Positions 17,664 through 54,430 of a stretch of DNA of 64,000 nucleotides are shown here, in pieces. This stretch comes from Bongovirus reindeer. Taxonomy: Duplodnaviria > Heunggongvirae > Uroviricota > Caudoviricetes > Vilmaviridae. Each line of letters starts with the position of its first letter. The stretch's first letter is position 1. The DNA lies in IMG/VR virus record IMGVR_UViG_2974717242_000001, positions 18,357 through 82,356 of that record, one strand, 5' to 3'. Below the pieces are notes generated by a model. The model was not told the origin of the DNA. It made no database searches and saw only the letters and a program-made list of their open reading frames with translations. Position numbers and translations under genes: made by a program.

Positions 17664-17986
17664 AGCTCGCGGTATTGCGCCCGGTAGACATCGGCGGGCA
17701 TCGACCACGACTCATCCAGGTCGGGGTCGAGAACCACGTAGTCGCCGGGGCGCAGAATGTGGGTGTCCCGGCCAGGCTCATCGACGGCCATGTACGCCAG
17801 CGAGCCATCCTCGTTGAACTTCGCAACGACGTTCATCGGGACGCCGCGTCGCTCAGCCTCCTGGGCGACGATGTAGGAGACGCCCGCGAAGTTGCGGCCG
17901 GTCACCTTAACACCCAGCGAGTACTTCAGGTCGTAGGGCTGCACCCGTTTGATTCCAGTGCCCTTGATCGCGTTGTTGGTGCTCAT
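17660..17986 (-). CDS. hypothetical protein
   Basis: 108 aa, ATGA overlap with upstream gene. Confidence 0.6.
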   Translation of the reverse strand: MSTNNAIKGTGIKRVQPYDLKYSLGVKVTGRNFAGVSYIVAQEAERRGVPMNVVAKFNEDGSLAYMAVDEPGRDTHILRPGDYVVLDPDLDESWSMPADVYRAQYREL

Positions 17987-18780
17987 AGCATTCCCTTCGT
18001 TTTCCAGTGGTTGTAGTGCATGCCGATCAGCCAGTTGTCCAGCTGCTCGTAGTCGGGATGATCAGGGAGGCAGGAGGCCTCCATCGACTTGCGCAACAAG
18101 TCGGTGCGCCACTCGAGGACGCTGAGCGCCTCCTGCAGGTTGTACTGGCCGTCACGAACCGCCAGTAGGTAGTCGCGGTGATAGTCGAGCATCGGAAGGT
18201 GAATTTCACCCTCCGTCATGAGCTGCTCGCCCTGAATGGCCAGCCGCGTCGCGTGGTACATCATCTTCGTGTCGTAGCCGCACTTCTCCACCAGCTCGGG
18301 ACGGTTCGTGTGCTTGCGGCCACGAAGCCCCTGCGCCCGCTCACGCTGAGCGACAAGGTATCCAATGAACCGGCCCCCGGCCTGCTTCGACAGGAACAAG
18401 TCACGATTGCCGACCAGCTCGGCACCCGAGTCGTTCATGAAGTAGATGTGATGCCGAGGGGCGAACAGCGGTATCAGCACAGTCGGATTGCCTTGCGCGG
18501 CAAGGCGGGCCCACTTCTGCAGGCTGTAGATCACCTGATCAGTGTCGCCGGGGCCCGACCGCACACCCTCAGGGATGCGGGTGCCATCAGCATGCCAACG
18601 GTCCTGATACTGCTCGAACTGCCTGGTGCCGATCACGCACTCCGGAGGGGCGATGCACATGCCCATCTCGTCGTTGTCGTCGGCACCCACAGTCACGCCA
18701 TGCAGACGAGAACCGACCTCAGTCTTGTAGATCAGGTTCTCCTGGGCGATCTTCCGATGCCAGGGGCTGTTGTGGCTCAC
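17983..18780 (-). CDS. Pol-beta superfamily nucleotidyltransferase
   Basis: GS-x9-DDND motif (TEVGSRLHGVTVGADDNDEMG) near N-terminus, 265 aa. Strong RBS AAGGAG before GTG start. Confidence 0.55.
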   Translation of the reverse strand: MSHNSPWHRKIAQENLIYKTEVGSRLHGVTVGADDNDEMGMCIAPPECVIGTRQFEQYQDRWHADGTRIPEGVRSGPGDTDQVIYSLQKWARLAAQGNPTVLIPLFAPRHHIYFMNDSGAELVGNRDLFLSKQAGGRFIGYLVAQRERAQGLRGRKHTNRPELVEKCGYDTKMMYHATRLAIQGEQLMTEGEIHLPMLDYHRDYLLAVRDGQYNLQEALSVLEWRTDLLRKSMEASCLPDHPDYEQLDNWLIGMHYNHWKTKGML

Positions 18781-20698: not shown

Positions 20699-20714
20699 CC
20701 AGCGATTACAGAAC

Positions 20715-34034: not shown

Positions 34035-34573
34035 TGAGCACCCACTGGAAGCCAGTCCGCAACACCGAGGGGTTATACCTGGCCAGCGACGACGGCCAGA
34101 TCCTCCGCAAGGAGTACCTCCTTGAGAAGGTACAGAGCAACGGTCGCCTGTACCGGCGTGTCATACCTGAGCAGATCGTCAAGCCGTACGTCACCCACCG
34201 GGCCCCGTCCAATAATCAGCATCCCGTGATTCGGGTCCGCAGAAGCATCAAGGACCGCAACGGATCTGAGAGGCGAGTGGCTGCCATGGTTGCCGCCGCA
34301 CACCTGGGCCTCCCGTACGATCCCGACGACATTGCCGACCGCAACCAGTGGCGGCTGGCGTTCCGCGACGGCGACCCGTTGAACGTTCACGTCGACAACC
34401 TCGAATGGGTGTCCAATCAGGGCGTCAACACCATGGCAACGCACGACGACTACTACCGCAACCTGCAGGCGTTCCGGGCGTTGGCCGAAACCGAAACCGC
34501 CGAGTCCTTCCTGGCCCGCTACTACTCGCCAGACGAAATCGACTGGTCCACAGCAGAGAGGATCGCCGCGTGA
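34034..34573 (+). CDS. HNH endonuclease
   Basis: GTG overlapping TAG stop. HPVIRVRR ... AAAHLG ... DGDPLNVHVDNLEWVSN is an HNH_3-type core. Confidence 0.5.
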   Translation: MSTHWKPVRNTEGLYLASDDGQILRKEYLLEKVQSNGRLYRRVIPEQIVKPYVTHRAPSNNQHPVIRVRRSIKDRNGSERRVAAMVAAAHLGLPYDPDDIADRNQWRLAFRDGDPLNVHVDNLEWVSNQGVNTMATHDDYYRNLQAFRALAETETAESFLARYYSPDEIDWSTAERIAA

Positions 34574-35079
34574 CCAACCTTGGTGTTGATCCCACCGCGT
34601 TCGAAATCGCCACCGACCCACTGCGTTTCCGTTTCCACGGCTGGACCGCCCACGGCAACATCGAGTTCGACGTGCCGTTCATCTCCGAGGTCGCCGACAA
34701 CCTGTGGCAGGGCGGCTGCGAAAGCAGCCTGGTGCTGCCCACGTTCATCAAGCATGTGGTGTCGCTGTACCCGTGGGAGAAGTACATCGTTGAGCACGAG
34801 CTGCTCTCCGAGAAGTCGATCAAGATGTACGACTCGGTCAACCAGAGCGTTCACCAGGTGGACGAGATCGCCGAGTGGGTCAACGAGTGCCGGAAGACGG
34901 GCCCCGTCCTGGTGCACTGCCAGGCCGGGTTGAACCGTTCGGCACTGATCGCAGCTCGGGCCATCTGGAAGTCGGACGACTTCCTCACTGGCCGGGAGAT
35001 CATCGACCACCTGCGTTCCACCCGCTCTGAGGCGGTGCTGTGCAACCCGGCGTTCGAGGCTGAGGTGCTGTCCTGGTGA
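34570..35079 (+). CDS. dual-specificity protein phosphatase
   Basis: GTGA overlap. Active-site signature VHCQAGLNRS (CX5R). Confidence 0.65.
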   Translation: MTNLGVDPTAFEIATDPLRFRFHGWTAHGNIEFDVPFISEVADNLWQGGCESSLVLPTFIKHVVSLYPWEKYIVEHELLSEKSIKMYDSVNQSVHQVDEIAEWVNECRKTGPVLVHCQAGLNRSALIAARAIWKSDDFLTGREIIDHLRSTRSEAVLCNPAFEAEVLSW

Positions 35080-36834: not shown

Positions 36835-37161
36835 TTGCCCACGAACAGTAAGAACGGCCCACGCTCTCGCGGACGAACGGGCGGCAAGTTTGAACGAGCG
36901 AAGTGGCGCGTACTGAACGCGAACCAGATCTGCGCCCATCCAGACTGTCGAAAATTCATAGATCTAAATCTCCGTTGGCCAGATCCAATGAGCCCCACCG
37001 TGAACCACATCATCCCCGTCAAAGACTTGGCCTGGGATGACCCTCTGACGTACTCGGTGGAAAACCTGGAGCCCATGCACCTGGTGTGCAATCAGCGTCT
37101 TGGCGCGGGACCCCGCAAGGAAAAGCCCAAGCATCCCCAGTCACGGAACTGGCGCGAATAA
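36835..37161 (+). CDS. HNH endonuclease
   Basis: CAHPDC ... NHIIP ... HLVCN Cys/His pattern, 108 aa. Confidence 0.55.
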   Translation: MPTNSKNGPRSRGRTGGKFERAKWRVLNANQICAHPDCRKFIDLNLRWPDPMSPTVNHIIPVKDLAWDDPLTYSVENLEPMHLVCNQRLGAGPRKEKPKHPQSRNWRE

Positions 37162-37171
37162 AGGAGCAGCA

Positions 37172-37417
37172 ATGGAGCCGTCTGTCGGCCGCATCGTTCA
37201 CTATCACTCGTATGGCACACCGGGAGGCGAGTATCTACCGGAGCCCCGCGCCGCGATCATCACGGCAGTCTACGAGGATGAACCCGAACTGTACGACCCG
37301 TCGAAAGTCTATGTGGGGCTGGCGGTTCTGAATCCGACCGGCATCTTCTTCAACCAGTTGGTCCCATTCTCGGAAGAGCCGAAGCCCGGTCACTGGAACT
37401 GGCCACCGCGCCTCTGA
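37172..37417 (+). CDS. hypothetical protein
   Basis: RBS AAGGAG before ATG 37172. Track ORF begins at 37100. Confidence 0.5.
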   Translation: MEPSVGRIVHYHSYGTPGGEYLPEPRAAIITAVYEDEPELYDPSKVYVGLAVLNPTGIFFNQLVPFSEEPKPGHWNWPPRL

Positions 37418-37499
37418 GCAAACCCATGCTACACTGTAGGTAGGCGTTAGCGCACACGAATGGTGTTGCGCAGCAAACATCATTCAGTTAGGACTTCAC

Positions 37500-37709
37500 A
37501 TGGCTTCTCCCCAGAACCCGTTCGTGCCACTCGACCCATCGGACTACAACCTGTCCGGTTCGCAGGCAGCTGAGGACGCGCTCGCCGCGATCATGAAGCC
37601 GCTCGTCGGCGCAGGACCGCATGACGACCTGACGGTGGAAGAGCTGAACCAGCGATTCGACGGCACCGGCTCGCCACGTCCGCACACGTTCCCCACTCCG
37701 CAGAACTGA
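37500..37709 (+). CDS. hypothetical protein
   Basis: 69 aa. Confidence 0.45.
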   Translation: MASPQNPFVPLDPSDYNLSGSQAAEDALAAIMKPLVGAGPHDDLTVEELNQRFDGTGSPRPHTFPTPQN

Positions 37710-37733
37710 TGTTCTGAGGTGTAGGCCCCAGGG

Positions 37734-37776
37734 AAGGCCCTCGGTCAGCGTGTGTGCTGGTCGGGGGCCTTTTTTG
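37734..37776 (+). terminator. intrinsic terminator
   Basis: Stem AAGGCCCTCG / CGGGGGCCTT followed by TTTTT. Immediately followed by a stoperator-like site. Confidence 0.55.
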
Positions 37777-37929
37777 ATTCTCCTGTAATCACTCTCGATG
37801 AAGCTTTAATCTATTTCATGTCCGGTTCAAGAAGGACCGGATGCGGTACACCGGAGGGGCTGGTTCCCAAATTCCAAGCCCGGTTCCTCCACTGGGACTC
37901 GACAGAGTTGAGGCTGAAGAGTCCCACGT

Positions 37930-38004
37930 ATGGGCGTAGCTGACAGGAAAGCAGCGGTCTCCAAAGCCGTGATGATGCAGGTTCGAATCCTGCCGCCCGT
38001 GCCA
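37930..38004 (+). tRNA. tRNA-Trp(CCA)
   Basis: Acceptor ATGGGCG/CGCCCGT, T-arm GCAGGTTCGAATCCTGC, anticodon loop CTCCAAA, encoded CCA end. D-stem weak. Confidence 0.55.
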
Positions 38005-38081
38005 CGTTCGATGTTCGGTGGTGACCGAACGCCGAACATGTTGGTTGAGAATTAAATAGTGGTAGTACAAGTAAGTTTCGA

Positions 38082-38451
38082 GGGGCTGTACTGGTTTTCG
38101 ATTACGAACCGAGTCCATGGAAGCGTGCCGGGAAGATACGCCCGTAACAGTTCAACCTTAATAAGCGCCGCATTTGTTGACGCTGATTACGCCGTAGCTG
38201 CGTGATCCGGTGGGGTAGAACGGTTTACCCGTTCCGTCTACCAATCCACCGTCGTCAATACGGGGACCGCAGGTACACCCAAGCATCTGCCAAACTGCTA
38301 GGGCCGTCCGGTCACGAGGACGTTAATCCCGTGTTCTTGCCCGTGGCAGATTGTGTCGCTATGCGAGGGGTGAAAATACAGAGGCACTACGCACGTAGAA
38401 GAATGAGTACAGAGAACGTAAGACGCGGGTTCGATTCCCGCCAGCTCCACC
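38082..38451 (+). ncRNA. ssrA: tmRNA (ssrA)
   Basis: 5' GGGGCTGTACTGGTTTTCGATTAC matches the tmRNA 5' consensus GGGGCUGAUUCUGGAUUCGAC. 3' end GACGCGGGTTCGATTCCCGCCAGCTCCACC is near-identical to the E. coli ssrA 3' end. G3-U70 in acceptor. Internal tag frame 38167-38205 encodes AAFVDADYAVAA-stop. Confidence 0.8.
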
Positions 38452-38692
38452 TGGGCCTGGGTTCTGGGTTCGAATCCCAGTGTGATTGAAGTGGATTCGC
38501 GGTCTGCAGCCGCGACTACGCTCCGGTGGGTAGCTCCCAGCCGCGTTCGCATGGTGTAATTGGCAAGCGCAGGGCCTGTTAAACCGGTTTCCCATCTCCG
38601 ACCAAAGGATGGGTGGTGGAAGACGAACTGGGTCTTAGGCAACCCCGTTCAGTCCTCGGCGTCCCAGCCCGCCGTCACCCGACTGGGCTAAG

Positions 38693-38767
38693 TGGGGTAT
38701 AGCCACAATGGCAGTGGCACTGGCCTGTTAAGCCGGATGAGTGTTGGTTCGAGTCCAGCTACCCTAG
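38693..38767 (+). tRNA. tRNA-Asn(GTT)
   Basis: Acceptor TGGGGTA/TACCCTA, D-stem GCCA/TGGC, anticodon stem CTGGC/GCCGG with loop CTGTTAA, T-arm GTTGGTTCGAGTCCAGC. No encoded CCA. Confidence 0.5.
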
Positions 38768-39678
38768 CGAGTGGAAGGTCGTCGGTTCGATTCCGACAGC
38801 GGAACAAACGGGCCGCTTAGCTCAGTGGCAGAGCATCCACGTTAACAACATTTGGGGCATGGCCCATAAGCTGAGGTGACTCAGTGAAAGGTGATGGTGA
38901 CATCTCGCCGCCCGCAAGGGTTCCCCATGCAATCCAAACCTTAAGCAGTTCCCGTTGGGGGCTGCCAGGTTGCGAGTTCATCGTGTGACCAACGCCAAGT
39001 GGTGAGGTCGGGTTCGGTACGTGCCGAAGGGCCAGCGAGTAACGGATGAGCAGCCTGTGGAATGGAAGGAACTTAAGTCAGAGCCTTGGCGGGTGACGGC
39101 GGGTTCCATGACCGATCTCGCGTGGACGACGGTTCACAATGCGGTTGAGGGAGAGAGTGAGTAGCCCGCCAGGCCAAAGCTCGAGAGGCGTGAAGCATTC
39201 TGTGCCCCAAAAGGGTTCGGAACTTCATGGGGAAGCACGTCTCTAGTCACAACTACCATGCTATTGGTTAGCAAACTGTCATTGAACACAGTTGTAGAGG
39301 TTCGACTCCTCGCAAAGCAAAAGCCTTTCCCTGCCGATGAGCAAAAGCGCCTTAATCCCCGACTGGGAGCAGAATCGGGGCAGGACGAGCCCGCAAGGCG
39401 GATCCTGTTTGTAGACAAGTAGTGCAGCCATGGGACGGCCATCCTAACGGCGAATCAAAAGTCGCAGAGTAGCTGTCGGTATGACGAGTGGTTCACGTTA
39501 CGGACCAGGCGTTGCACGTACACAGGGGACTGTGTGGACAAGTCGGGAATCCATAATCCGACGAAAGCGTGTGGTCGAGCGGTTTAGTCTCTAGCCCGCT
39601 CAACAATCGGAATGTGCGTCTAATGGCAAGGCGTGGGGGCACCCAGATGCAGGTTCGAATCCTGACTTTCCGGCATTT

Positions 39679-39755
39679 CCCGTGGCGAATTGGCGATCAC
39701 CGGTGACTGTAAATCACCCGCTTCGGCTGTGTAGGTTCGACTCCTGCCTGCGGGA
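39679..39755 (+). tRNA. tRNA-Tyr(GTA)-like
   Basis: Acceptor CCCGTGG/CTGCGGG (C1 start), perfect anticodon stem GGTGA/TCACC with loop CTGTAAA, 12-nt variable arm, T-arm GTAGGTTCGACTCCTGC. D-arm irregular. Confidence 0.4.
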
Positions 39756-39901
39756 CGACGAGACTGACGGGGCACAGTAGGTTCCAGGCTTGCGGCTGAA
39801 TCGAACACCCCCGCCCGCAAGGCCAGTCTCAATGACAACGCCTCGAAAACGTTGTCATCCGCTAGTGGAGAGGTGAGCGGACTGAATTGCCTTTCCAGCA
39901 T

Positions 39902-39973
39902 TGCCTGCTGGTGTAAATGACAGCACACGAAGCTCTGACCTTCGTAGTTCAGGTTTGAATCCTGGGCGGGCAT
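39902..39973 (+). tRNA. tRNA-Gln(CTG)
   Basis: Acceptor TGCCTGC/GCGGGCA (U1-A72 as in bacterial tRNA-Gln), D-stem GTGT/GCAC, anticodon stem CGAAG/CTTCG with loop CTCTGAC, T-arm TCAGGTTTGAATCCTGG. Confidence 0.55.
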
Positions 39974-40016
39974 CGAGATGGGTTGTCGGTATACCTCCAT
40001 GAAGGGAACCGTCACT

Positions 40017-40090
40017 CAGTCTGAGGTGTAAGTGGTTTGCATGGCCGGTTTGGATCCGGGCGGTTCGAGGTTCGAGTCCTCGCAGACTGA
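40017..40090 (+). tRNA. tRNA-Pro(TGG)
   Basis: Perfect acceptor CAGTCTG/CAGACTG (C1 start), anticodon loop TTTGGAT, perfect T-arm CGAGGTTCGAGTCCTCG. Confidence 0.5.
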
Positions 40091-40244
40091 CGTACCCGTT
40101 GGTGGATCGGATAACCACCCGACCTGATCTCAGGTTCCGTTAAGCAAATGAGATCGTGCCCCGTCGCCGTGGGATATGTCAGAAAAATCACGGGATCCCA
40201 TTGACCCGAGGGATTACGGCCTGATCAGCCGATAGGGTCAACCT

Positions 40245-40327
40245 GGAGGGATCCGCTGAATGGTCGGCAACCGGCGTCGAATACCGGGGCTGGGTGAAAC
40301 CAGGGGGTTCGATTCCTCATCCCTCCG
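40245..40327 (+). tRNA. tRNA-Ser(CGA), type II
   Basis: Acceptor GGAGGGA/TCCCTCC, anticodon loop GTCGAAT, long variable arm hairpin CTGG-GTGAAA-CCAG, T-loop TTCGATT. 83 nt. Confidence 0.55.
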
Positions 40328-40525
40328 CTCTGGAGAGTGGAACCATCTAGGTGGATGGCCGCGATTGCTAATCGCGGGGCAGCGTAACGCTGTGTGGATC
40401 GTGCCCACTCCTCTCCGCAATGAGAATCTAGCTGGCCAGCCATCAGGGTGTCGGTTCAACTCCGACAGGGAAAACCTGTGATTCTCAGGGGGTGCGGTTG
40501 GAGTCATGACCGTCGCATCCCATAT

Positions 40526-40598
40526 CGGGTTGTAGCTCAATTGGAAGAGCGCTGGCTTGAAACCCCAGAGGCTTCTGGTTCGAATCCAGGCATCCCGG
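40526..40598 (+). tRNA. tRNA-Phe(GAA)
   Basis: Canonical D-arm TAGCTCAATTGGAAGAGC, anticodon loop TTGAAAC, T-arm TCTGGTTCGAATCCAGG, acceptor CGGGTTG/CATCCCG. Confidence 0.6.
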
Positions 40599-40612
40599 CG
40601 CTAGGAGGCACT

Positions 40613-40804
40613 ATGTCGAACATGATGCGGATGCTCCGCAGGCCCCAGTGTAATCGGGGGTGTTGCGGTGGCGAACGTGAGCGTGAGGCCCAGCGGCCAG
40701 CCGAGAGGCGGCGAGTGCAGGCCGAGATCGACATGGAGACCTACGACATGACGCCAGACGCGGAATACGCGTGGCTGGAGTACATGTCAGGCATTGCGCG
40801 GTAG
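40613..40804 (+). CDS. small Cys/Arg-rich protein
   Basis: RBS CTAGGAGGC before ATG 40613. 63 aa, MSNMMRMLRRPQCNRGCCGG. Embedded between tRNAs. Track ORF 40448-40804 over-extends it. Confidence 0.5.
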   Translation: MSNMMRMLRRPQCNRGCCGGEREREAQRPAERRRVQAEIDMETYDMTPDAEYAWLEYMSGIAR

Positions 40805-40866
40805 TGAAATCGGGATCACACTGGTCTCATAAGCCAGCATTACGAGTTCGAGTCTCGTCTGCGCAA
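40795..40866 (+). tRNA. tRNA-Met(CAT)
   Basis: Acceptor TGCGCGG/CTGCGCA, D-arm TAGTGAAATCGGGATCAC, anticodon stem CTGGT/GCCAG with loop CTCATAA, T-arm ACGAGTTCGAGTCTCGT. Overlaps last codons of preceding CDS. Confidence 0.6.
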
Positions 40867-40947
40867 CGACGTATCAGGTTCTGCAAGGGGTAGGTAAAAA
40901 GGGTCCACGCCCCAGTGGCCCAAACCTGGTGCATTGAAAGGAAATAC

Positions 40948-41106
40948 ATGGCTGAGAAGCTGAAGTCCGGTGTTGCCGCCGCTCCGATTGTGAAGGCGGT
41001 CAATGATCTGATCGACGCGAGCGATGTCGATGTCGCCGCCCTGGCTGCGACTGTCGCGGATCTGGAGACGCGTGTGGAGGCGCTGGAGGCGGCTGCGGAG
41101 GCGTGA
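40948..41106 (+). CDS. small coiled-coil protein
   Basis: RBS GAAAGGAAA before ATG 40948, 52 aa, Ala-rich. Confidence 0.45.
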   Translation: MAEKLKSGVAAAPIVKAVNDLIDASDVDVAALAATVADLETRVEALEAAAEA

Positions 41107-41141
41107 TCGCCCGTCCTGGCCATGACGCGAAACTGGCCGAT

Positions 41142-41213
41142 CCCGCCGCAGCACGACGGACGTGCATCTCGCTACGAACGAGGGGGCTGCTGGTTCGAAT
41201 CCAGTCGGTGGGT
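41142..41213 (+). tRNA. tRNA-Arg(ACG)
   Basis: Acceptor CCCGCCG/CGGTGGG (C1 start), D-stem GCAC/GTGC, anticodon stem TCTCG/CGAGG with loop CTACGAA, T-arm GCTGGTTCGAATCCAGT. Confidence 0.55.
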
Positions 41214-41218
41214 CTATA

Positions 41219-41290
41219 CCCCTTGTGGCGTAATGGTTAGCGCAGCGGTCTGTGAAGCCGTCCATCACGGTTCGACTCCGTGCAGGGGGA
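41219..41290 (+). tRNA. tRNA-His(GTG)
   Basis: Acceptor CCCCTTG/CAGGGGG, D-arm GCGTAATGGTTAGCGC, anticodon stem GCGGT/GCCGT with loop CTGTGAA, perfect T-arm CACGGTTCGACTCCGTG. Confidence 0.55.
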
Positions 41291-41294
41291 CTTT

Positions 41295-41366
41295 GGCGAG
41301 GTGGCCGAGTTAGTTAGGCAGCAGGCTGCAACCCTGTTCACGCCGGGGCAGATCCGGCTCTCGTCT
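41295..41366 (+). tRNA. tRNA-Cys(GCA)-like
   Basis: Acceptor GGCGAGG/TCTCGTC, anticodon stem GCAGG/CCTGT with loop CTGCAAC. Atypical T-loop GGCAGAT in stem GCCGG/CCGGC. Confidence 0.4.
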
Positions 41367-41380
41367 CGAAGGGGTCACCC

Positions 41381-41638
41381 ATGGGTGTGTTGCTCTCCAG
41401 GGCCGAGCTGGAGCGCCTCAAGGAGGCTGCGGCATGGTTGGATCAGCAGCCGGAAGTTAAGGCGCGAGAGAGGCAGCTAGCGGCCATTCTGGAGCACGAG
41501 ATGCGCCTGGCCGGATGGGATGGTACTGGGGATCTTCGGCCGTGGTTCACGCGGTGCATGGAGATCAACCTCGCTTTGGATCAGACGCAGGGTCGACCGC
41601 CGTCGATTCAGAACTGGCCAGGCTATGAGGCTCGCTAG
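41381..41638 (+). CDS. hypothetical protein
   Basis: RBS GAAGGGG before ATG, 85 aa. 3' end overlaps the following tRNA. Confidence 0.5.
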   Translation: MGVLLSRAELERLKEAAAWLDQQPEVKARERQLAAILEHEMRLAGWDGTGDLRPWFTRCMEINLALDQTQGRPPSIQNWPGYEAR

Positions 41639-41702
41639 GCAAACTGGCAAAGCCGCCTGATTCAGAATCAGGTGCTTCCGAGTTCGACTCTCGGGCGAGC
41701 TA
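41629..41702 (+). tRNA. tRNA with CAG anticodon (Leu by anticodon) but short variable loop
   Basis: Acceptor GGCTCGC/GCGAGCT, anticodon stem CCTGA/TCAGG with loop TTCAGAA, perfect T-arm CCGAGTTCGACTCTCGG, variable loop only 4 nt. Confidence 0.45.
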
Positions 41703-41763
41703 CGTTTCACGCGGAGGTCTACGGGCTGATGCGGTTATTACTGGTCTGACGACCTGGAGATGA

Positions 41764-42726
<963 letters not shown>

Positions 42727-42733
42727 TCCCATC

Positions 42734-42806
42734 GGGACGTTGGTGAAACGGCTATCACCGCACGCTCTTAACGTGCCAGTTCTGGGTTCGAATCCCAGGC
42801 GTCCCA
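42734..42806 (+). tRNA. tRNA-Lys(CTT)
   Basis: Acceptor GGGACGT/GCGTCCC, anticodon stem GCACG/CGTGC with loop CTCTTAA, perfect T-arm CTGGGTTCGAATCCCAG. Confidence 0.55.
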
Positions 42807-42811
42807 CTTAA

Positions 42812-42885
42812 GCCTGTTTAGCTCAGTTGGTAAGAGCGCCTGCCTGATACGCAGGAGGTCGGTGGTTCAATCCCATCAACAGGTA
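42812..42885 (+). tRNA. tRNA-Ile(GAT)
   Basis: Canonical: acceptor GCCTGTT/AACAGGT, D-arm TAGCTCAGTTGGTAAGAGC, anticodon stem CCTGC/GCAGG with loop CTGATAC, T-arm GGTGGTTCAATCCCATC. Confidence 0.7.
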
Positions 42886-42897
42886 CGCAGTAACTCT

Positions 42898-42972
42898 GGG
42901 GTATTCATCTAGTCTGGCTTAGGATGCGACGCTTCCAACGTCGTCACGAGGGTTCGAATCCTTCATACCTCA
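42898..42972 (+). tRNA. tRNA-Gly(TCC)
   Basis: Acceptor GGGGTAT/ATACCTC, D-stem CATC/GATG, perfect anticodon stem CGACG/CGTCG with loop CTTCCAA, T-arm GAGGGTTCGAATCCTTC. Confidence 0.6.
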
Positions 42973-42978
42973 CTTTGC

Positions 42979-43049
42979 GCCGCTTTCGTCCAATGGTAGG
43001 GCACCTGGCTTACATCCAGATGACGGGAGTTCGATTCTCTCAAGCGGTA
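42979..43049 (+). tRNA. tRNA-Val(TAC)
   Basis: Acceptor GCCGCTT/AAGCGGT, D-loop AATGGTA, anticodon loop CTTACAT, T-arm GGGAGTTCGATTCTCTC. Confidence 0.5.
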
Positions 43050-43109
43050 CGTGGCCTGACGAGGCACCGGGGACTGGGTACCCGGCTTAGCGGCGAACAC
43101 CCACCCAAT

Positions 43110-43184
43110 GCCGATATAGCTCAATGGCTAGAGCCCTGCCTTAGTAACGCAGTGATCTCAGTTCGATTCTGAGTTTCGGCTCCA
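43110..43184 (+). tRNA. tRNA with encoded CCA, anticodon loop TTAGTAA (AGT, Thr?) isotype uncertain
   Basis: Canonical D-arm TAGCTCAATGGCTAGAGC, perfect T-arm CTCAGTTCGATTCTGAG, 3' TCCA. Anticodon stem has one C-C mismatch so the loop register is ambiguous. Confidence 0.5.
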
Positions 43185-43228
43185 CGGGCCACTTGCACGA
43201 GCACCCGTCCAAAACGCTTATGCACCAT

Positions 43229-43302
43229 GGGGGCGCATGTTCCAAGGTGGCGACCGACCCTTGCAAGGTTGGTGTGGTCGCGTTCGATTCGCACCGTCTC
43301 CA
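43229..43302 (+). tRNA. tRNA-Ala(TGC)-like with degenerate T-stem
   Basis: Acceptor GGGGGCG/CGTCTCC including G3-U70 Ala identity pair, anticodon stem CGACC/GGTTG with loop CTTGCAA. T-loop TTCGATT but only 3-bp T-stem, poor D-stem. Confidence 0.4.
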
Positions 43303-43356
43303 CGCTCAGTATGCAGATCGTAGGCCAATGGGCTATGAAATGCTTACTCGCACAAT

Positions 43357-43429
43357 CCCGATGTCATCTAGTGGCCTAGGATGCCGCCCTGTCGAGGCGG
43401 TCACGCGAGTTCAAATCTCGTCGTCGGGA
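43357..43429 (+). tRNA. tRNA-Asp(GTC)
   Basis: Acceptor CCCGATG/CGTCGGG (C1 start), D-stem CATC/GATG, perfect anticodon stem CCGCC/GGCGG with loop CTGTCGA, T-arm GCGAGTTCAAATCTCGT. Confidence 0.55.
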
Positions 43430-43479
43430 CTACGACCTTAGTGCAGCTTGGAGGTCTTTAAATATGAGGCTGCACGCCT

Positions 43480-43550
43480 GGTTCTATGGTGTAGTGGCAG
43501 CACGCGACCCTCTCAAGGTCTAGGCGGGAGTTCAATTCTCCCTAGAACTA
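43480..43550 (+). tRNA. tRNA-Glu(CTC)
   Basis: Acceptor GGTTCTA/TAGAACT, D-arm GTGTAGTGGCAGCAC, anticodon loop CTCTCAA, perfect T-arm GGGAGTTCAATTCTCCC. Confidence 0.55.
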
Positions 43551-43554
43551 CATT

Positions 43555-43590
43555 GACCCCCAATCACTTCGGTGGTTGGGGGTCTTTTTT
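43555..43590 (+). terminator. intrinsic terminator closing the tRNA array
   Basis: Stem GACCCCCAA / TTGGGGGTC followed by TTTTTT. Stoperator-like site immediately downstream. Confidence 0.7.
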
Positions 43591-43712
43591 ATGCCCTGAC
43601 CTGCGAATACAGGACGGGCACATACTTCTTGCCGTGAGTCCGATTGTGTTCCTCATCATCGTCGCGTTGGTGGGGCTCTCGCTCGCAATTCTTTGTCACT
43701 AGAAGGGATTTC

Positions 43713-44930
43713 ATGGCACCCACTACGCTAGCTCCGAAGGTGGTCAGCTTCGCCTCGGAGATCGATCAGGCGACGATTGACCAGGCGATGCAGATCGCTG
43801 AGATGCCGTTCATTCACCCACATTTGGCGTTGATGCCGGATGCTCATTCGGGCAAGGGTTCTGCGGTGGGGACTGTCATTCCCACGGTGGGTGCGGTGAT
43901 TCCGGCCGCTGTGGGTGTGGACATCGGCTGCGGCATGATCGCGGTGAGGACGCGGTTCACTCTCTCGGATCTGCAGATCAAGCATCATGTCAACCTGCTC
44001 GCCGAGATTCCGCTGGCGTCGCTGCGCCGCCAGATCGAGGAAGCGATCCCGCTGTCACCGGGCAACTACAACTCGACGTTGTCGAAGTTCGCGTTTACCC
44101 GCAAGAAGCATGAGGAGCTGATCCAGCTTCAGCAGGAGCTGGATGTCGACCTGTCCCACAGTCCGAAGTGGATGGAGCAGCTGGGTTCCCTCGGCGGCGG
44201 CAACCACTTCATCGAGCTGTGCCTGGACGAGGACGACACGGTGTGGCTGTTCCTGCATTCGGGTTCGCGGGGTGTGGGCAACAAGATCGCCCAGGTCCAC
44301 ATTAAGGCGGCGCAGGCATTCTGTGATCTCTACGGTGAGAAGCTGCCGAACCGCGACCTGGCGTACCTGGTGGAGAACACGTACGAGTTCGACCGGTATA
44401 TCAGGGAGCTGGAGTGGGCCCAGCGGTTCGCCTACCTGAACCGTGCGGAGATGATGGACCGCTTCGTCCACGTGTTCGCGTGGTGGCTGGGCGTGGAGGC
44501 TCAGCGTGTCGAGGTGGAGCGCATCAACTGCCACCACAACTACACGGTGCCGACCGTGAATGATGGCGAGCGGGTGTGGTTGACCCGCAAGGGTGCCATC
44601 GATGCGTCGGAGGGCAAGCTGGGGGTGATTCCCGGCTCGATGGGCACCAGGTCGTATGTGGTGCGGGGGAAGGGCTGCAGCGCTGGTTTGCTCTCTGCCC
44701 CTCATGGGGCGGGTCGCCGGTACTCCCGCACGAAGGCCAAGGAACTGTTCACCAAGGATGACTTGGCTGAGCAGATGCAGGGCATCGAGTGGCGCGAGGA
44801 CATCGCCGACAAGCTGGTCGATGAGATTCCGTCCTCGTACAAAGACATCGACCAGGTGATGGCTGATGCGGAGCCGTTGGTTGAGGTGGTGACCACCTTG
44901 CGCCAAGTCCTGAACGTCAAGGGTACGTAG
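43713..44930 (+). CDS. rtcB: RtcB-family RNA ligase
   Basis: RBS GAAGGGA before ATG 43713. ALMPDAHSGKGS, GGGNHFIEL, HSGSRGVG and SAPHGAGR are hallmark RtcB motifs. 405 aa. Confidence 0.8.
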   Translation: MAPTTLAPKVVSFASEIDQATIDQAMQIAEMPFIHPHLALMPDAHSGKGSAVGTVIPTVGAVIPAAVGVDIGCGMIAVRTRFTLSDLQIKHHVNLLAEIPLASLRRQIEEAIPLSPGNYNSTLSKFAFTRKKHEELIQLQQELDVDLSHSPKWMEQLGSLGGGNHFIELCLDEDDTVWLFLHSGSRGVGNKIAQVHIKAAQAFCDLYGEKLPNRDLAYLVENTYEFDRYIRELEWAQRFAYLNRAEMMDRFVHVFAWWLGVEAQRVEVERINCHHNYTVPTVNDGERVWLTRKGAIDASEGKLGVIPGSMGTRSYVVRGKGCSAGLLSAPHGAGRRYSRTKAKELFTKDDLAEQMQGIEWREDIADKLVDEIPSSYKDIDQVMADAEPLVEVVTTLRQVLNVKGT

Positions 44931-44958
44931 CCATTCCAACGACGAGAGGTAGTCGAGC

Positions 44959-45294
44959 ATGACCGTTCTGGCGGAAACACCGATCATCCACGTTCCGACT
45001 GATGTGACACACATGTCGGGACTCGACATCGTCACGCACATTCAGTGCGGCGATGAGTCGACGTGGGAGGAGGAGCTGCACTACGTGTGGGTGACCGACC
45101 GGCCACACACACTCAGCCTGATGGATCGCATCATCGCGGACGGGGAGATCAAGGAGCCGATCTGGATTGATCGGAACTATCCGGACGCGGTACGGGAGAC
45201 CGGCAAGGAGTGGCGTGTGTACAACGGCCACCACCGCACAGCCATCGGGCTGGCACTTCAGATCCCGGTACCTGTTCACTTCTCGCGTTACTGA
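44959..45294 (+). CDS. ParB-like nuclease domain protein
   Basis: RVYNGHHRTAIGLA resembles ParB/sulfiredoxin-fold GHHR motif. 111 aa. Confidence 0.45.
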   Translation: MTVLAETPIIHVPTDVTHMSGLDIVTHIQCGDESTWEEELHYVWVTDRPHTLSLMDRIIADGEIKEPIWIDRNYPDAVRETGKEWRVYNGHHRTAIGLALQIPVPVHFSRY

Positions 45295-45332
45295 ACTTTC
45301 GATTCAACCATCACAACTAAAAGGAGTTGCCT

Positions 45333-46232
45333 ATGAGCTGGCAAATGTGGGCTTTCATTGTCCTGTGGATCATCGGTGTCCTGGTCATGGCGGGCGGGTT
45401 TTTGGCGTCGCGTGCCGTCAAGGACGAAGACGAGAAGACTAGCTGCAAGTTGGTCGGCGGTTTCGGCGCGCTGATCATCGCTCTCGGGGCGATCATTCTG
45501 GCGACCGGCTGCTTCACCATCGTCGGTACGCGACAGATCGGCATCGAGACGGCGTTCAACCGGCCGACCGGTAAGACGTTCGAGAACGGCCTGAACTTCA
45601 AGGCCCCGTGGGCGAGTGTGGTTGAGATGGATGGCGCGATCCAGATCAACAAGTACGAGGGCGACAACGCTGTCCGCGTGCGTTTGGGGAACAACTCGAC
45701 TGCCGGTGCTGACACGTCGATTCGGTGGCGTATCAAGCAGGACGCGGCCGACGAGCTGTTCGTTGACTACAAGACGTTCGACAACGTGCGGGTCAACTTG
45801 ATCGAGCGCAATCTGCAGGTCGCGGAGAACGAGGTGTTCCAGTCGTTCGACCCGCTGGACGCGGAGTGGGCCGAGGGTGTGCCGCTGCAGCAGTTCGCTG
45901 ACAAGGCGGCGGCGAAGCTGAAGGATCTGGTCGGCAAGCAGGTGGAGATCATCGACGTGTCGGTGTCACGCTTGGATTACGACGAGCAGACCGAGGGCAA
46001 GATCAACCAGTTGAACGCGGAGCGGGCCAACACCGCTGTGGCGAAGCAGGCGCAGGCCACGGCCATCGCGCAGGCTGAGGCGAACCGTCAGCTGGCGTCG
46101 TCGGTGTCGAACGATCCGAATGTCATCGTCGCGAACTGCATCTCGAAGGCGTTGGACAAGGGTGTGTCTCCGTTCGGTTGTTGGCCGAATGGCGGCGAGA
46201 TGTTGCTGACCGTCCCGGCACCTGTCAAGTAG
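45333..46232 (+). CDS. SPFH/band-7 domain membrane protein
   Basis: RBS AAAGGAG before ATG 45333. Two N-terminal TM helices then prohibitin-like domain and Ala/Gln-rich coiled coil. Confidence 0.55.
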   Translation: MSWQMWAFIVLWIIGVLVMAGGFLASRAVKDEDEKTSCKLVGGFGALIIALGAIILATGCFTIVGTRQIGIETAFNRPTGKTFENGLNFKAPWASVVEMDGAIQINKYEGDNAVRVRLGNNSTAGADTSIRWRIKQDAADELFVDYKTFDNVRVNLIERNLQVAENEVFQSFDPLDAEWAEGVPLQQFADKAAAKLKDLVGKQVEIIDVSVSRLDYDEQTEGKINQLNAERANTAVAKQAQATAIAQAEANRQLASSVSNDPNVIVANCISKALDKGVSPFGCWPNGGEMLLTVPAPVK

Positions 46233-46302
46233 CACTACGGTTTGCGCCGGTCCCTCGGATCTGTTGGGGGACCGGCGCTGTCATTCGAAAGGGTTATCGC
46301 TG

Positions 46303-46446
46303 ATGATCCTCAAGGTCAAGGTGTTGGGCTTCGAGGTGCTGACGGTCGAGCTGGAGTCGGACGAGGGCCCTGGTGTGCAGCTCACTGCTGTCGATAAGGG
46401 TGTGAAGGGTATGTCGCACTGGTGGTTTCGGAGGATGAATAGGTGA
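46303..46446 (+). CDS. small hypothetical protein
   Basis: RBS GAAAGGG before ATG 46303, 47 aa. Track ORF starts at 46264. Confidence 0.4.
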   Translation: MILKVKVLGFEVLTVELESDEGPGVQLTAVDKGVKGMSHWWFRRMNR

Positions 46447-46847
46447 CCGTGACGAACTGTGTTGAGCCAGAGTCGAAGCCGCGTCGGCTGACGATCATGG
46501 GTGATCGTATGGCGGGTAAGACTCATCACTTGTTGGACATTGCGGTGGATAACGCCGAGCGGGGCAAGCTCGTATTGTTCGACTGCTCAACAGTTCCGTT
46601 GATGGCGTACACGTATGACCGCTGCGTCCGCGAGCACGCCAGGTTCGGCTGGCCCGACAGCAGGGCGATCAAGTGTCTCGACGGTGCACGGGAGATCCTG
46701 TTCGAGTCGGGCGGCAAGATCATCTTCAACGCCGGTACGGCCTATGTGCGCCGCTATTCGGGCCCTGTGGATGTCCACCTGATCGATGACACCGATGTGG
46801 ATGCCCGCGCCGACACAGAGCTGGTCATCAGGTCGGTTCTGCGGTGA
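46443..46847 (+). CDS. P-loop NTPase-like hypothetical protein
   Basis: GTGA overlap. Walker A-like GDRMAGKT. 134 aa. Confidence 0.45.
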   Translation: MTVTNCVEPESKPRRLTIMGDRMAGKTHHLLDIAVDNAERGKLVLFDCSTVPLMAYTYDRCVREHARFGWPDSRAIKCLDGAREILFESGGKIIFNAGTAYVRRYSGPVDVHLIDDTDVDARADTELVIRSVLR

Positions 46848-54347: not shown

Positions 54348-54430
54348 GTTTTCCCTTCTCGTGAATTTGCCGTGAATGTAGGCCTGTCCTGTATTTGCAG
54401 GTCAGCCCATGTTTTGGCCCAGAAAGCCAG

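What the first reader, a model, noticed from the sequence alone, without database searches (positions are those of the whole stretch)
43713..44930. RtcB RNA ligase immediately downstream of the tRNA/tmRNA array
RtcB joins 2',3'-cyclic phosphate and 5'-OH RNA ends, the products of anticodon nucleases and other tRNA-cleaving toxins. Placing rtcB right after the terminator that closes the tRNA array suggests a tRNA repair or replacement module. It would counter host tRNA-targeting defences.
Basis: inference. Interest (0 to 1): 0.55.

Follow-up and report, generated by a model that had tools for sequence, protein, structure and literature searches.

The report
Known phage RtcB RNA ligase gene
The gene is a genuine, intact RtcB RNA-sealing enzyme sitting just after the tRNA block of Mycobacterium phage Reindeer, but it is already annotated as such and its proposed role in mending host-cut tRNAs was published years ago, so the finding is correct but ordinary.

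Summary
The window is Mycobacterium phage Reindeer (cluster M; window = record position minus 18356). ORF 43713-44930 (+) is exactly its gp117, deposited as "RtcB-like RNA ligase". It matches Pfam RtcB end to end (E = 2e-108) and keeps every metal-binding residue and the GMP-accepting histidine.

The stated context also holds. The last tRNA ends 161 nt upstream, a strong terminator follows it, and Rfam finds a tmRNA in the array.

It was proposed for cluster K1 mycobacteriophages in 2011 and for jumbo phages in 2021, and remains untested for any mycobacteriophage.

What I add:
- The rtcB/tRNA-array adjacency holds in all 14 cluster-M-like loci and arose separately in three unrelated actinobacterial elements. 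However, 121 of 167 related rtcB loci have no tRNA in the up-to-10-kb flanks held.
- rtcB is probably its own transcription unit: conserved terminator, then a promoter-like motif repeated four times, then a 22-codon ORF.
- The phage also encodes an RlaP RNA-repair nucleotidyltransferase (gp49).

Seen in passing: an unannotated tmRNA, GOLLD RNA and tRNA-Phe, and a permuted tRNA-like (YrlA-like) module.

Verdict: already known, low interest.

The parts
43713..44930 (+). rtcB (Reindeer gp117), 405-aa RtcB-family 3'-phosphate/5'-OH RNA ligase
   Evidence: Pfam PF01139 E = 2e-108 over the full profile. Catalytic residues D43, H45, D70, C73, N164, H165, H182, H275 and H331 align with P. horikoshii D65, H67, D95, C98, N202, H203, H234, H329 and H404. 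GenBank product 'RtcB-like RNA ligase'. Shine-Dalgarno AAGGGA lies 5 nt before the ATG.
43555..43590 (+). Intrinsic terminator closing the tRNA array (13-bp stem, TTCG loop, T6)
   Evidence: Present at the same position in all 12 cluster-M-like loci examined, with different stem sequences (-16.8 to -25.5 kcal/mol).
43595..43614 (+). Promoter/operator-like 20-nt motif CCTGACCTGCGAATACAGGA, followed 6 nt later by a -10-like hexamer CATACT (43621-43626)
   Evidence: The motif CCTGACCWGYGAWTACAGRR occurs 4 times in the window (19804+, 20694+, 43595+, 54387-54406 minus strand); 0.07 expected. It is conserved in PegLeg, Rey, MrMagoo-like, Aziz-like and a Mycobacterium sp. AZCC_0083 prophage. Three copies have a hexamer with A at position 2 and T at position 6 (TACCTT, CATACT, TACATT) starting 6 nt after the motif, upstream of a gene in the right orientation. 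Function as a promoter is inferred, not shown.
43634..43702 (+). Unannotated 22-codon hydrophobic ORF (VSPIVFLIIVALVGLSLAILCH) between the promoter-like motif and rtcB; possibly a leaderless first cistron
   Evidence: The GTG lies 7 nt after the -10-like hexamer and the stop lies 10 nt before the rtcB ATG. The PegLeg/Bongo counterpart has the same length and frame (VSVIALLISLLLFGLALLILCH) despite 22 of 69 nucleotide differences. In Rey and MrMagoo the same position starts a lipoprotein gene. Only two variants are available, so coding status is suggestive only.
37930..43551 (+). tRNA array: 20 tRNAs (one per amino acid), tmRNA 38082-38452, GOLLD RNA 3' domain 39183-39597, interspersed small ORFs and the RNR small subunit gene
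   Evidence: ARAGORN; Rfam; annotation.
17983..18780 (-). gp49, RlaP-family (RNA-ligase-associated Pol-beta) nucleotidyltransferase: a second predicted RNA-repair enzyme, unlinked to rtcB
   Evidence: Pfam PF10127 E = 4.7e-28, 99 bits against a cut-off of 23. RlaP adds 1-2 nucleotides to 3'-OH ends of damaged tRNA halves in vitro (PMC12776372). In jumbo phages its distribution mirrors that of RNA ligases (PMC7824862).
44959..45294 (+). gp118 (annotated ParB-like nuclease domain protein), immediately downstream of rtcB; probably not a functional partner
   Evidence: No Pfam or NCBIfam hit; PHROG 7527 of unknown function. Absent from this position in PegLeg and Rey.

Best explanation
**What it is.** gp117 is a catalytically competent RtcB RNA ligase.

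**Mechanism (by homology to characterised RtcBs).** With Mn2+ and GTP, His331 becomes guanylylated. A 2',3'-cyclic phosphate end is opened to a 3'-phosphate and activated as RNA(3')pp(5')G. The 5'-OH end then attacks to restore a normal phosphodiester bond.

**Role proposed for the phage.** The enzyme most likely reseals tRNAs, host-encoded or phage-encoded, and possibly rRNA. These would be nicked in their loops by metal-independent host ribonucleases such as MazF-type toxins, PrrC/RloC-like anticodon nucleases, colicin-type tRNases or HEPN RNases. It would be one arm of a translation-maintenance toolkit:
- replacement: a complete 20-isotype tRNA set;
- ribosome rescue: the tmRNA;
- repair: RtcB, plus the RlaP nucleotidyltransferase gp49.

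**Expression.** rtcB appears to be expressed from its own promoter-like element, downstream of the array's terminator and behind a 22-codon ORF, not as part of the tRNA precursor.

**Shown versus inferred.** Shown: identity, intact active site, genomic arrangement and its conservation. Inferred: ligase activity, substrates, timing of expression and the counter-defence role.
For: - Full-length RtcB profile match and all metal and GMP ligands conserved.
- Adjacency to the array in 14 of 14 cluster-M-like loci, always after tRNA-Glu.
- Independent adjacency in L158 (35 tRNAs, the last 76 nt upstream of rtcB), L053 (10 tRNAs starting 212 nt downstream, in a chromosomal-looking context) and L117 (3 tRNAs, 173 nt downstream). 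The nearest RtcB relatives of these three are not array-linked.
- An RlaP gene in the same genome, with literature linking RlaP and RNA ligases in phages.
- Literature on related systems. rtcB neighbours some cyanobacterial tRNA arrays (though not Anabaena's own array), and in Anabaena it is co-regulated with the array (PMC8421152). E. coli RtcB reverses MazF cleavage of 16S rRNA (cited in PMC5408214). The same hypothesis was made for cluster K1 phages (PMC3203893).
Against: - No experiment exists on any mycobacteriophage RtcB.
- A strong conserved terminator separates rtcB from the tRNAs.
- 121 of 167 related rtcB loci have no tRNA in the up-to-10-kb flanks held. These include cluster K1 phages, Gordonia and Rhodococcus phages, and M. 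abscessus prophages.
- Conservation within cluster M is shared ancestry and counts as one event.
- No specific host nuclease is identified. The abundant mycobacterial VapC toxins are PIN nucleases whose products RtcB is not expected to seal.
- RlaP produces 3'-OH ends that RtcB cannot use directly (PMC12776372).
Confidence: 0.6

Rival explanations
1. The ligase mainly repairs ribosomal RNA or other non-tRNA transcripts. Examples are 16S or 23S rRNA cut by MazF-type or colicin-E3-type toxins. The position next to the tRNA array would then be incidental or reflect a general 'translation apparatus' neighbourhood.
For: E. coli RtcB religates MazF-cut 16S rRNA (cited in PMC5408214). RtcB2-PrfH repairs damaged ribosomes (PMC9304027, listed). 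The phage also carries a tmRNA, which rescues stalled ribosomes. Most rtcB homologues are not tRNA-linked.
Against: The protein scores below the cut-off of the PrfH-associated RtcB family TIGR03073 (144 against 271.8 bits), and no prfH is annotated. Array adjacency arose independently at least four times.
Confidence: 0.2
2. rtcB is an accessory gene that benefits the lysogen rather than lytic growth. Expressed from the prophage, it would help the host survive RNA-damaging stress, toxins or superinfection.
For: Cluster M phages are temperate; an integrase (gp133) lies 6.5 kb downstream. rtcB has its own promoter-like element and an upstream terminator. Related rtcB genes sit in M. abscessus prophages and in chromosomal contexts.
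Against: The same 20-nt motif precedes the rightward early-gene block (19804, 20694), which suggests lytic co-regulation. No expression data are available.
Confidence: 0.1
3. RtcB matures or circularises a phage-encoded structured RNA from the array: the GOLLD RNA, the permuted tRNA-like module or the tmRNA. It would not be repairing damage.
For: The array holds a GOLLD RNA (206 bits) and a permuted tRNA-like module supported by covariation. In some eukaryotes, permuted tRNA genes mature through a ligase-dependent circular intermediate (my knowledge). In Salmonella, YrlA and Rsr are encoded in the rtcBA operon (PMC4201824).
Against: RNase P and RNase Z processing leaves 5'-P and 3'-OH ends, which are not RtcB substrates (established enzymology). 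No self-cleaving ribozyme family was found in the window at the gathering threshold, nor in 37000-46500 at E <= 0.5. The 'anticodon loop' flank of the module is not conserved. GOLLD and the module are absent from L158, L053 and L008 (GOLLD) although rtcB is array-linked there. K1 phages have rtcB without such RNAs nearby.
Confidence: 0.05
4. The enzyme acts on DNA ends, sealing or capping 3'-phosphate DNA breaks, and has no RNA role in the phage.
For: E. coli RtcB can join DNA 3'-PO4 ends to 5'-OH ends in vitro (my knowledge of Shuman-laboratory work, not checked here). Recombination and repair genes are present in the genome.
Against: There is no neighbourhood link to DNA-repair genes. Linkage to tRNA arrays recurs, and an RlaP RNA-repair gene co-occurs.
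Confidence: 0.03

Closest known systems
RtcB genes of cluster K1 mycobacteriophages (e.g. Anaya gp88, CrimD gp85)
   Same: Same protein family, about 62% identical, same host. [quoted passage not shown]
   Different: In K1 phages rtcB lies in the right arm with no tRNA within 6 kb. In cluster M it directly follows a 20-tRNA/tmRNA/GOLLD array.
E. coli RtcB of the RtcR-controlled rtcBA RNA-repair operon
   Same: Same fold family and length class (405 aa). All active-site residues are conserved, so the same GTP/Mn2+ three-step chemistry is expected.
   Different: Scores below the NCBIfam equivalog cut-off (167 against 407 bits). No rtcA or rtcR is annotated in the phage. A promoter-like motif specific to the phage replaces sigma-54/RtcR control.
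Phage T4 Pnkp + Rnl1 tRNA repair against the PrrC anticodon nuclease
   Same: Same proposed logic: a phage-encoded enzyme reseals tRNA cut by a host suicide nuclease.
   Different: Unrelated enzymes and chemistry. T4 heals the ends with kinase-phosphatase and then seals 3'-OH/5'-P ends with an ATP-dependent ligase. RtcB seals 3'-P/5'-OH ends directly with GTP. No Pnkp or Rnl homologue is annotated here.
Cyanobacterial long tRNA arrays (L-arrays) and rtcB (Anabaena)
   Same: rtcB was found in the genomic neighbourhood of L-arrays in some cyanobacteria, and in Anabaena it is co-regulated with the array under translational stress. The authors propose repair of tRNAs cut by toxin RNases (PMC8421152).
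   Different: Chromosomal or plasmid bacterial arrays with a different regulatory repeat, and in Anabaena itself rtcB does not lie next to the array. Here the array is a phage locus with a terminator between it and rtcB.
RNA-repair gene sets of jumbo phages (RtcB or Rnl ligases + RlaP + tRNAs)
   Same: The same combination of tRNAs, RtcB and RlaP, interpreted as counter-defence (PMC7824862).
   Different: Reindeer is an 82-kb temperate siphovirus, not a jumbo phage. RlaP and rtcB lie 25 kb apart on opposite strands.

Membership tests
RtcB RNA ligase family (Pfam PF01139) | Full-length match to the family profile above the curated cut-off | tested here: met
   363.8 bits against a cut-off of 27, E = 2e-108, profile positions 1-426 of 426. 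PHROG 1075 E = 3e-156.
RtcB RNA ligase family (Pfam PF01139) | Two-metal site ligands (P. horikoshii Asp95, Cys98, His203, His234, His329, plus Asp65, His67 and Asn202) | tested here: met
   D70, C73, H165, H182, H275, D43, H45 and N164 align to them in the phmmer alignment with 1uc2/4dwr. Positions were checked.
RtcB RNA ligase family (Pfam PF01139) | Histidine that forms the covalent His-GMP intermediate (P. horikoshii His404, in the HGAGR motif) | tested here: met
   His331 in PHGAGR aligns to CHGAGR of 1uc2.
RtcB RNA ligase family (Pfam PF01139) | GTP- and Mn2+-dependent joining of 3'-P or 2',3'-cP ends to 5'-OH ends | not testable with these tools
   Needs purified protein.
E. coli-type RtcB equivalog (NCBIfam NF007153) within an rtcBA/rtcR operon | Score above the equivalog cut-off; neighbouring rtcA and rtcR | tested here: not met
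   167.1 bits against a cut-off of 407. No RtcA or RtcR is annotated in the part of the record that lies within the window.
PrfH-associated RtcB2 (TIGR03073 release_rtcB) | Score above the cut-off; adjacent prfH | tested here: not met
   144.3 bits against a cut-off of 271.8. The neighbours are gp118 and a band-7 protein.
Intein-containing RtcB relatives (NCBIfam NF052663) | RtcB extein interrupted by an intein; score above 1050 bits | tested here: not met
   This is the best NCBIfam hit (380 bits), but only over the extein parts; no intein is present.
tRNA repair/replacement 'module' (operon sense) | rtcB co-transcribed with the tRNA array | tested here: inconclusive
   The sequence argues against co-transcription: a conserved strong terminator and a repeated promoter-like motif lie between them. 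No transcript data are available, and read-through cannot be excluded.
tRNA repair/replacement 'module' (neighbourhood sense) | Recurrent, independent linkage of rtcB to tRNA arrays | tested here: met
   The cluster M lineage (14 loci) plus L053, L117 and L158, whose nearest RtcB relatives are not array-linked. The linkage is a minority pattern: 17 of 167 loci.
RlaP nucleotidyltransferase (Pfam PF10127), for gp49 | Profile match above the cut-off | tested here: met
   99 bits against a cut-off of 23, E = 4.7e-28, profile positions 17-248 of 249.
YrlA (Y RNA-like, Rfam RF02553), for the module at 38771-38840 | Score above the gathering threshold; Ro-binding helix with a GNCGAA(N)G motif; an adjacent Ro60/Rsr gene | tested here: not met
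   31.9 bits against a gathering score of 69. No conserved motif in the 5' flank and no Ro-like gene annotated. Only the tRNA-like domain (T arm, capped acceptor stem, D arm) is shared. That domain is supported by covariation.

The most novel reading that the evidence does not exclude
The array-plus-rtcB neighbourhood would be a coordinated, horizontally mobile 'translation rescue island'. RtcB would work with array-encoded non-tRNA RNAs: the permuted tRNA-like (YrlA-like) module at 38771-38840 and the GOLLD RNA. One version has the open-anticodon-loop tRNA mimic acting as a decoy or sensor for anticodon nucleases. Another has RtcB resealing or circularising it. In either case the association would be mechanistic, not a matter of shared selective pressure.
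Probability: 0.07. Interest if true: 0.6.

Novelty: already known. Interest (0 to 1): 0.2.

Why it matters
If the repair role were shown, it would be the first experimental case of a phage using RtcB-type sealing against a tRNA-cutting defence. T4 uses Pnkp/Rnl1 instead. It would also help explain why some temperate actinophages carry full tRNA sets.

The gene, its family assignment and the hypothesis are all already in the public record, so this finding adds little by itself. The useful residue for annotators and experimenters is:
- the evidence that rtcB-array linkage arose several times;
- the probable separate transcription unit;
- the RlaP partner gene;
- the RNA genes missing from the Reindeer record.

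Tried and rejected
- ARAGORN finds no tmRNA in the whole window or the sub-region. Rfam does, and relatives have it annotated, so the tmRNA is accepted.
- The simple sigma-70 scan found no promoter between the terminator and rtcB. Mycobacterial promoters have weak -35 elements, so I relied on the repeated motif instead.
- The cluster M paper (Pope et al. 2014, PMC3958112) and the Mycobacterium GOLLD paper (Morgado et al. 2020, PMC7549688) are not held. I cannot say what they state about rtcB or GOLLD in cluster M.
- Searches for experimental work on phage RtcB as an anti-defence protein found none.
- gp118, immediately downstream, was considered as a partner of RtcB. I rejected this because there are no family hits and it is absent from that position in PegLeg and Rey.
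- The DSP/PTP phosphatase was considered as an end-healing partner. In Rey it abuts rtcB, and Reindeer gp84 is its orthologue at 51% identity. In Reindeer it lies about 8.6 kb upstream of rtcB, about 2.9 kb before the array, so this stays a weak lead.
- Neighbours of rtcB in L158 and L053 gave no RNA-repair Pfam families.
- Self-cleaving ribozymes as a source of RtcB substrates: none found by Rfam.
- Structure prediction and the large protein-database searches were not run. The sequence evidence for family membership was already decisive.
Full report
**Source of the window**

A megablast of 43400-45300 gives a 100% match over its whole length to Mycobacterium phage Reindeer. The records are MT658803.1 and NC_053516.1, 82,356 bp, genus Bongovirus, cluster M, host M. 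smegmatis mc2 155. Record position equals window position plus 18356, so the window is the right-hand 64 kb of the genome.

**The observation**

The ORF list shows a + strand frame open from 43644, with an in-frame ATG at 43713 and a stop ending at 44930. The ATG is preceded by AAGGGA. It is the start used in GenBank for gp117, product 'RtcB-like RNA ligase' ('tRNA splicing ligase' in RefSeq).

The 405-aa product matches several libraries:
- Pfam RtcB over the whole profile, 363.8 bits, E = 2e-108;
- PHROG 1075, E = 3e-156;
- solved RtcB structures from P. horikoshii, T. thermophilus and human, E = 1e-26 to 1e-19.

From the printed alignment to P. horikoshii RtcB and a motif check, every residue I know to be catalytic in that enzyme has its counterpart:

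| Reindeer gp117 | P. horikoshii RtcB |
|---|---|
| D43, H45 | D65, H67 |
| D70, C73 | D95, C98 |
| N164, H165 | N202, H203 |
| H182 | H234 |
| H275 | H329 |
| H331 | H404 (the GMP-accepting histidine) |

The protein is therefore an intact RtcB. It does not reach the curated cut-offs of the E. coli-type equivalog or of the PrfH-associated RtcB2 family. Its best NCBIfam match is to the extein parts of an intein-containing actinobacterial RtcB family. It belongs to an actinobacterial and actinophage clade of the superfamily.

ARAGORN finds 20 tRNA genes on the + strand between 37930 and 43551, exactly one for each of the 20 amino acids. The last one, tRNA-Glu, ends 161 nt before rtcB. Rfam adds a full-length tmRNA at 38082-38452 (95.8 bits) and a GOLLD RNA at 39183-39597 (206 bits).

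A 13-bp hairpin with a TTCG loop and a T6 tail sits at 43555-43590, four bases after tRNA-Glu. A terminator occupies the same position in all 12 cluster-M-like loci I examined, and the stems differ in sequence. It is a real, conserved terminator.

**Is the neighbourhood meaningful?**

I collected 167 loci encoding relatives of gp117:
- 80 from one genome per bacterial species;
- 80 from IMG/VR viral contigs;
- 7 from annotated phage records.

I then ran ARAGORN on all of them. The result by class:

| Class of locus | Number |
|---|---|
| Cluster-M-like phages or prophages (RtcB at least 72% identical), rtcB after a long array ending in tRNA-Glu | 14 |
| Other loci with three or more tRNAs within 1 kb | 3 |
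| One or two tRNAs within 1 kb (prophage integration at a tRNA gene is my unverified guess for these) | 12 |
| tRNAs only further away | 17 |
| No tRNA in the up-to-10-kb flanks held | 121 |

The 14 cluster-M-like loci share ancestry and count as one event. Details of the three other array-linked loci:
- L158 is a viral contig with 35 tRNAs, the last 76 nt upstream of rtcB.
- L053 is an Actinomycetota genome in which rtcB is followed after 212 nt by ten tRNAs, among ordinary metabolic genes.
- L117 has three tRNAs starting 173 nt downstream of rtcB.

The closest RtcB relatives of these three (66-76% identity) are not array-linked. The linkage therefore arose at least four times. Whenever an array is present within the flanks, it abuts rtcB.

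The group with no nearby tRNA includes cluster K1 phages, Gordonia and Rhodococcus phages, and M. abscessus prophages. The association is real but is a minority pattern.

**Transcription**

Directly after the terminator lies the 20-nt sequence CCTGACCTGCGAATACAGGA (43595-43614). The degenerate form CCTGACCWGYGAWTACAGRR occurs four times in the window, against 0.07 expected. The other copies are at the start of the rightward early block (19804, 20694) and, on the minus strand, upstream of gp138 (54387-54406).

The motif is conserved after the terminator in PegLeg, Rey, MrMagoo-like and Aziz-like phages and in a Mycobacterium sp. AZCC_0083 prophage. Three of the four copies are followed, exactly 6 nt later, by a hexamer with A at position 2 and T at position 6 (TACCTT, CATACT, TACATT), and then by a gene start.

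Here the hexamer is followed after 7 nt by a GTG that opens a 22-codon hydrophobic ORF at 43634-43702. That ORF ends 10 nt before the rtcB ATG. PegLeg and Bongo have a same-length, same-frame counterpart despite 22 of 69 base differences.

I read this as a promoter, possibly with an operator, driving a leaderless transcript micro-ORF-rtcB-gp118-gp119. No further terminator-like site was found on the + strand between rtcB and 46500. This reading is inference, since there are no transcript data. It means rtcB is a neighbour of the array, not a member of its transcription unit.

**Other repair-related genes**

gp49 (17983-18780, minus strand, annotated only as 'nucleotidyl transferase') is a clear member of Pfam RlaP, the RNA-ligase-associated Pol-beta nucleotidyltransferases (E = 4.7e-28). 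A recent preprint shows that RlaP enzymes add one or two nucleotides to the 3'-OH of damaged tRNA halves (PMC12776372). A comparative study notes that RlaP distribution mirrors that of RNA ligases in jumbo phages (PMC7824862).

Homologues of gp49 occur in 464 phage records, including phages I recognise as the tRNA-rich mycobacteriophage clusters C1 and L.

A dual-specificity phosphatase lies immediately after rtcB in Rey. Its Reindeer orthologue is gp84, 51% identical, about 8.6 kb upstream of rtcB. I treat this as a weak lead only. No RtcA, RtcR, Pnkp, Rnl or Ro gene is annotated.

**What is already known**

The 2011 cluster K paper states that, because only subcluster K1 genomes encode both tRNAs and RtcB, these RtcB proteins may protect against a host tRNA-cleavage defence (PMC3203893).

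The jumbo-phage survey describes phage tRNAs 'supplemented' by RtcB and ATP-grasp ligases that religate cleaved tRNAs. It notes that RtcB substrates come from metal-independent RNases.

In cyanobacteria, rtcB was identified in the genomic neighbourhood of long tRNA arrays in some species, though not next to Anabaena's own array. In Anabaena it is co-regulated with the array, with the same repair idea proposed (PMC8421152).

tBLASTn finds RtcB in 697 phage records. I found no experimental test of any phage RtcB. The cluster M paper itself could not be read.

The finding is thus a correct re-discovery of an annotated gene and a published hypothesis.

**Mechanism and rivals**

The best-supported account is an active GTP/Mn2+-dependent 3'-phosphate/5'-OH ligase. 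It would reseal tRNAs, and perhaps rRNA, nicked by metal-independent host ribonucleases. It would complement the full tRNA set (replacement), the tmRNA (ribosome rescue) and RlaP (end restoration).

One caveat concerns the proposed tests. VapC is a metal-dependent PIN nuclease, and its expected 5'-P/3'-OH products would not be RtcB substrates (my knowledge, not verified here). MazF-type toxins do leave 2',3'-cP and 5'-OH ends (PMC5408214) and are better candidates.

The rivals are:
- rRNA rather than tRNA repair;
- a lysogen-benefit role;
- maturation of array-encoded structured RNAs;
- DNA end sealing.

The third is disfavoured for three reasons. RNase P and RNase Z products have the wrong ends. 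No ribozyme family was detected. Array-linked rtcB also occurs without GOLLD.

**Seen in passing**

- The Reindeer record lacks the tmRNA, which is annotated in Rey and PegLeg.
- It also lacks tRNA-Phe at 40526-40599, which lies inside the annotated CDS gp101, and tRNA-Leu(cag) at 41629-41703. It lists tRNA-Pro twice.
- The GOLLD RNA is conserved in PegLeg, Rey, L092 and L094 and is annotated in none of the records I fetched. GOLLD in Mycobacterium tRNA arrays has been reported before (PMC6582537; Morgado 2020, cited).
- Between tRNA-Asn and the GOLLD hit, 38771-38840 reads as a circularly permuted tRNA. In order it has the anticodon-stem 3' strand, variable loop, T arm, an acceptor stem capped by a loop, D arm and the anticodon-stem 5' strand.
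  - It gives a sub-threshold YrlA hit: 31.9 bits against 69, E = 8e-4 in 9.5 kb.
  - It folds as a four-way junction in all four sequences folded (Reindeer, the MrMagoo-like L089, Rey and L094).
  - In five sequences, 97.8% of cells are paired and 7 of 18 pairs show changes on both sides, against 33-49% and none when the partners are slid.
  - It lacks a recognisable Ro-binding motif, and the phage has no Ro gene. I would call it a tRNA-like module of YrlA type, possibly the 5' end of the full-length GOLLD transcript.
  - The host's own YrlA has a 7-bp acceptor-like stem that RNase P cuts (PMC4201824).
  - This is the most interesting thing near the finding, but its connection to RtcB is speculative.

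**Verdict**

Observation confirmed. Interpretation plausible, partly supported and not new. Novelty: already known. Interest: low.

Noticed in passing
window 38771-38840 (+); homologues at L089:4849-4982, L091:4786-4878, L002:3941-4068, L094:4453-4533: A circularly permuted tRNA-like module lies just after tRNA-Asn and upstream of the GOLLD hit. In order: anticodon-stem 3' strand, variable loop, T arm, loop-capped acceptor stem, D arm, anticodon-stem 5' strand. It gives a sub-threshold Rfam YrlA hit (31.9 bits against 69) and folds as a four-way junction. Covariation supports it: 97.8% of cells paired and 7 of 18 pairs compensatory in 5 sequences, against 33-49% and none in slid controls. There is no Ro-binding motif and no Ro gene in the phage. 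PegLeg and Bongo lack the module.
   Followed up: partly
window 39183-39597 (+); L003:2586-2999, L002:4358-4781, L092:4178-4606, L094:6158-6597: A GOLLD RNA 3' domain (Rfam RF02032, 162-216 bits) is conserved inside cluster M tRNA arrays and annotated in none of the records I fetched. Conserved sequence (GGGGCATGGCCCATAAGC...CCCGCAAGGG...CCATGCAATCC) extends about 350-400 nt upstream. This suggests a transcript of roughly 750-830 nt that would overlap the annotated small CDS gp95 (39021-39164). In Rey the hit contains the annotated tRNA-Ser.
   Followed up: partly
window 38082-38452 (+): A tmRNA (Rfam 95.8 bits) is missing from the Reindeer GenBank record and missed by ARAGORN. The tag read by homology is AAFVDADYAVAA. 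It is annotated at the same position in Rey and PegLeg.
   Followed up: yes
window 40526-40599 and 41629-41703 (+): tRNA-Phe(gaa) (58 bits) lies inside the annotated CDS gp101 (40448-40804), which is therefore doubtful. tRNA-Leu(cag) (55 bits, only 75 nt, no long variable arm) is also not annotated. The record lists tRNA-Pro twice. With these corrections the phage carries exactly one tRNA for each of the 20 amino acids.
   Followed up: partly
window 19804-19823 (+), 20694-20713 (+), 43595-43614 (+), 54387-54406 (-): The 20-nt motif CCTGACCWGYGAWTACAGRR occurs 4 times (0.07 expected). Three copies are followed 6 nt later by a -10-like hexamer and then a gene start, and the motif is conserved across cluster M subclusters. 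It is probably a phage promoter or operator class linking rtcB, the early rightward genes and a leftward block near the integrase.
   Followed up: partly
window 43634-43702 (+): An unannotated 22-codon hydrophobic ORF (VSPIVFLIIVALVGLSLAILCH) sits between the promoter-like motif and rtcB. Its GTG lies 7 nt after the -10-like hexamer, so it may be leaderless. PegLeg and Bongo conserve it in length and frame despite 22 of 69 nucleotide changes. In Rey and MrMagoo the same position starts a lipoprotein gene.
   Followed up: partly
window 17983-18780 (-): gp49, annotated only as 'nucleotidyl transferase', is an RlaP-family (PF10127) RNA-repair nucleotidyltransferase. Homologues occur in 464 phage records, mostly mycobacteriophages, including phages I recognise as the tRNA-rich clusters C1, L and M.
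   Followed up: partly
window 34570-35079 (+); L002:10210-10716: The dual-specificity (PTP-type) phosphatase gp84 is the orthologue (51% identity) of the Rey gene that directly abuts the 3' end of rtcB. It might be an RNA end-modifying partner that has moved within the genome.
   Followed up: no
L053:9983-12367 and L158:1769-11158: Two further rtcB/tRNA-array pairs exist. One is in an uncultured Actinomycetota chromosome, flanked by citrate-synthase-like and MFS transporter genes. The other is on a viral contig carrying 35 tRNAs. Both are unrelated to cluster M.
   Followed up: partly
window 40245-40326 (+) and 39608-39673 (+): Weak tRNA-like Rfam hits lie in array gaps: tRNA-Sec model 29.8 bits (E = 0.011) and tRNA model 24.4 bits (E = 0.16). 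They may be decayed tRNA genes.
   Followed up: no
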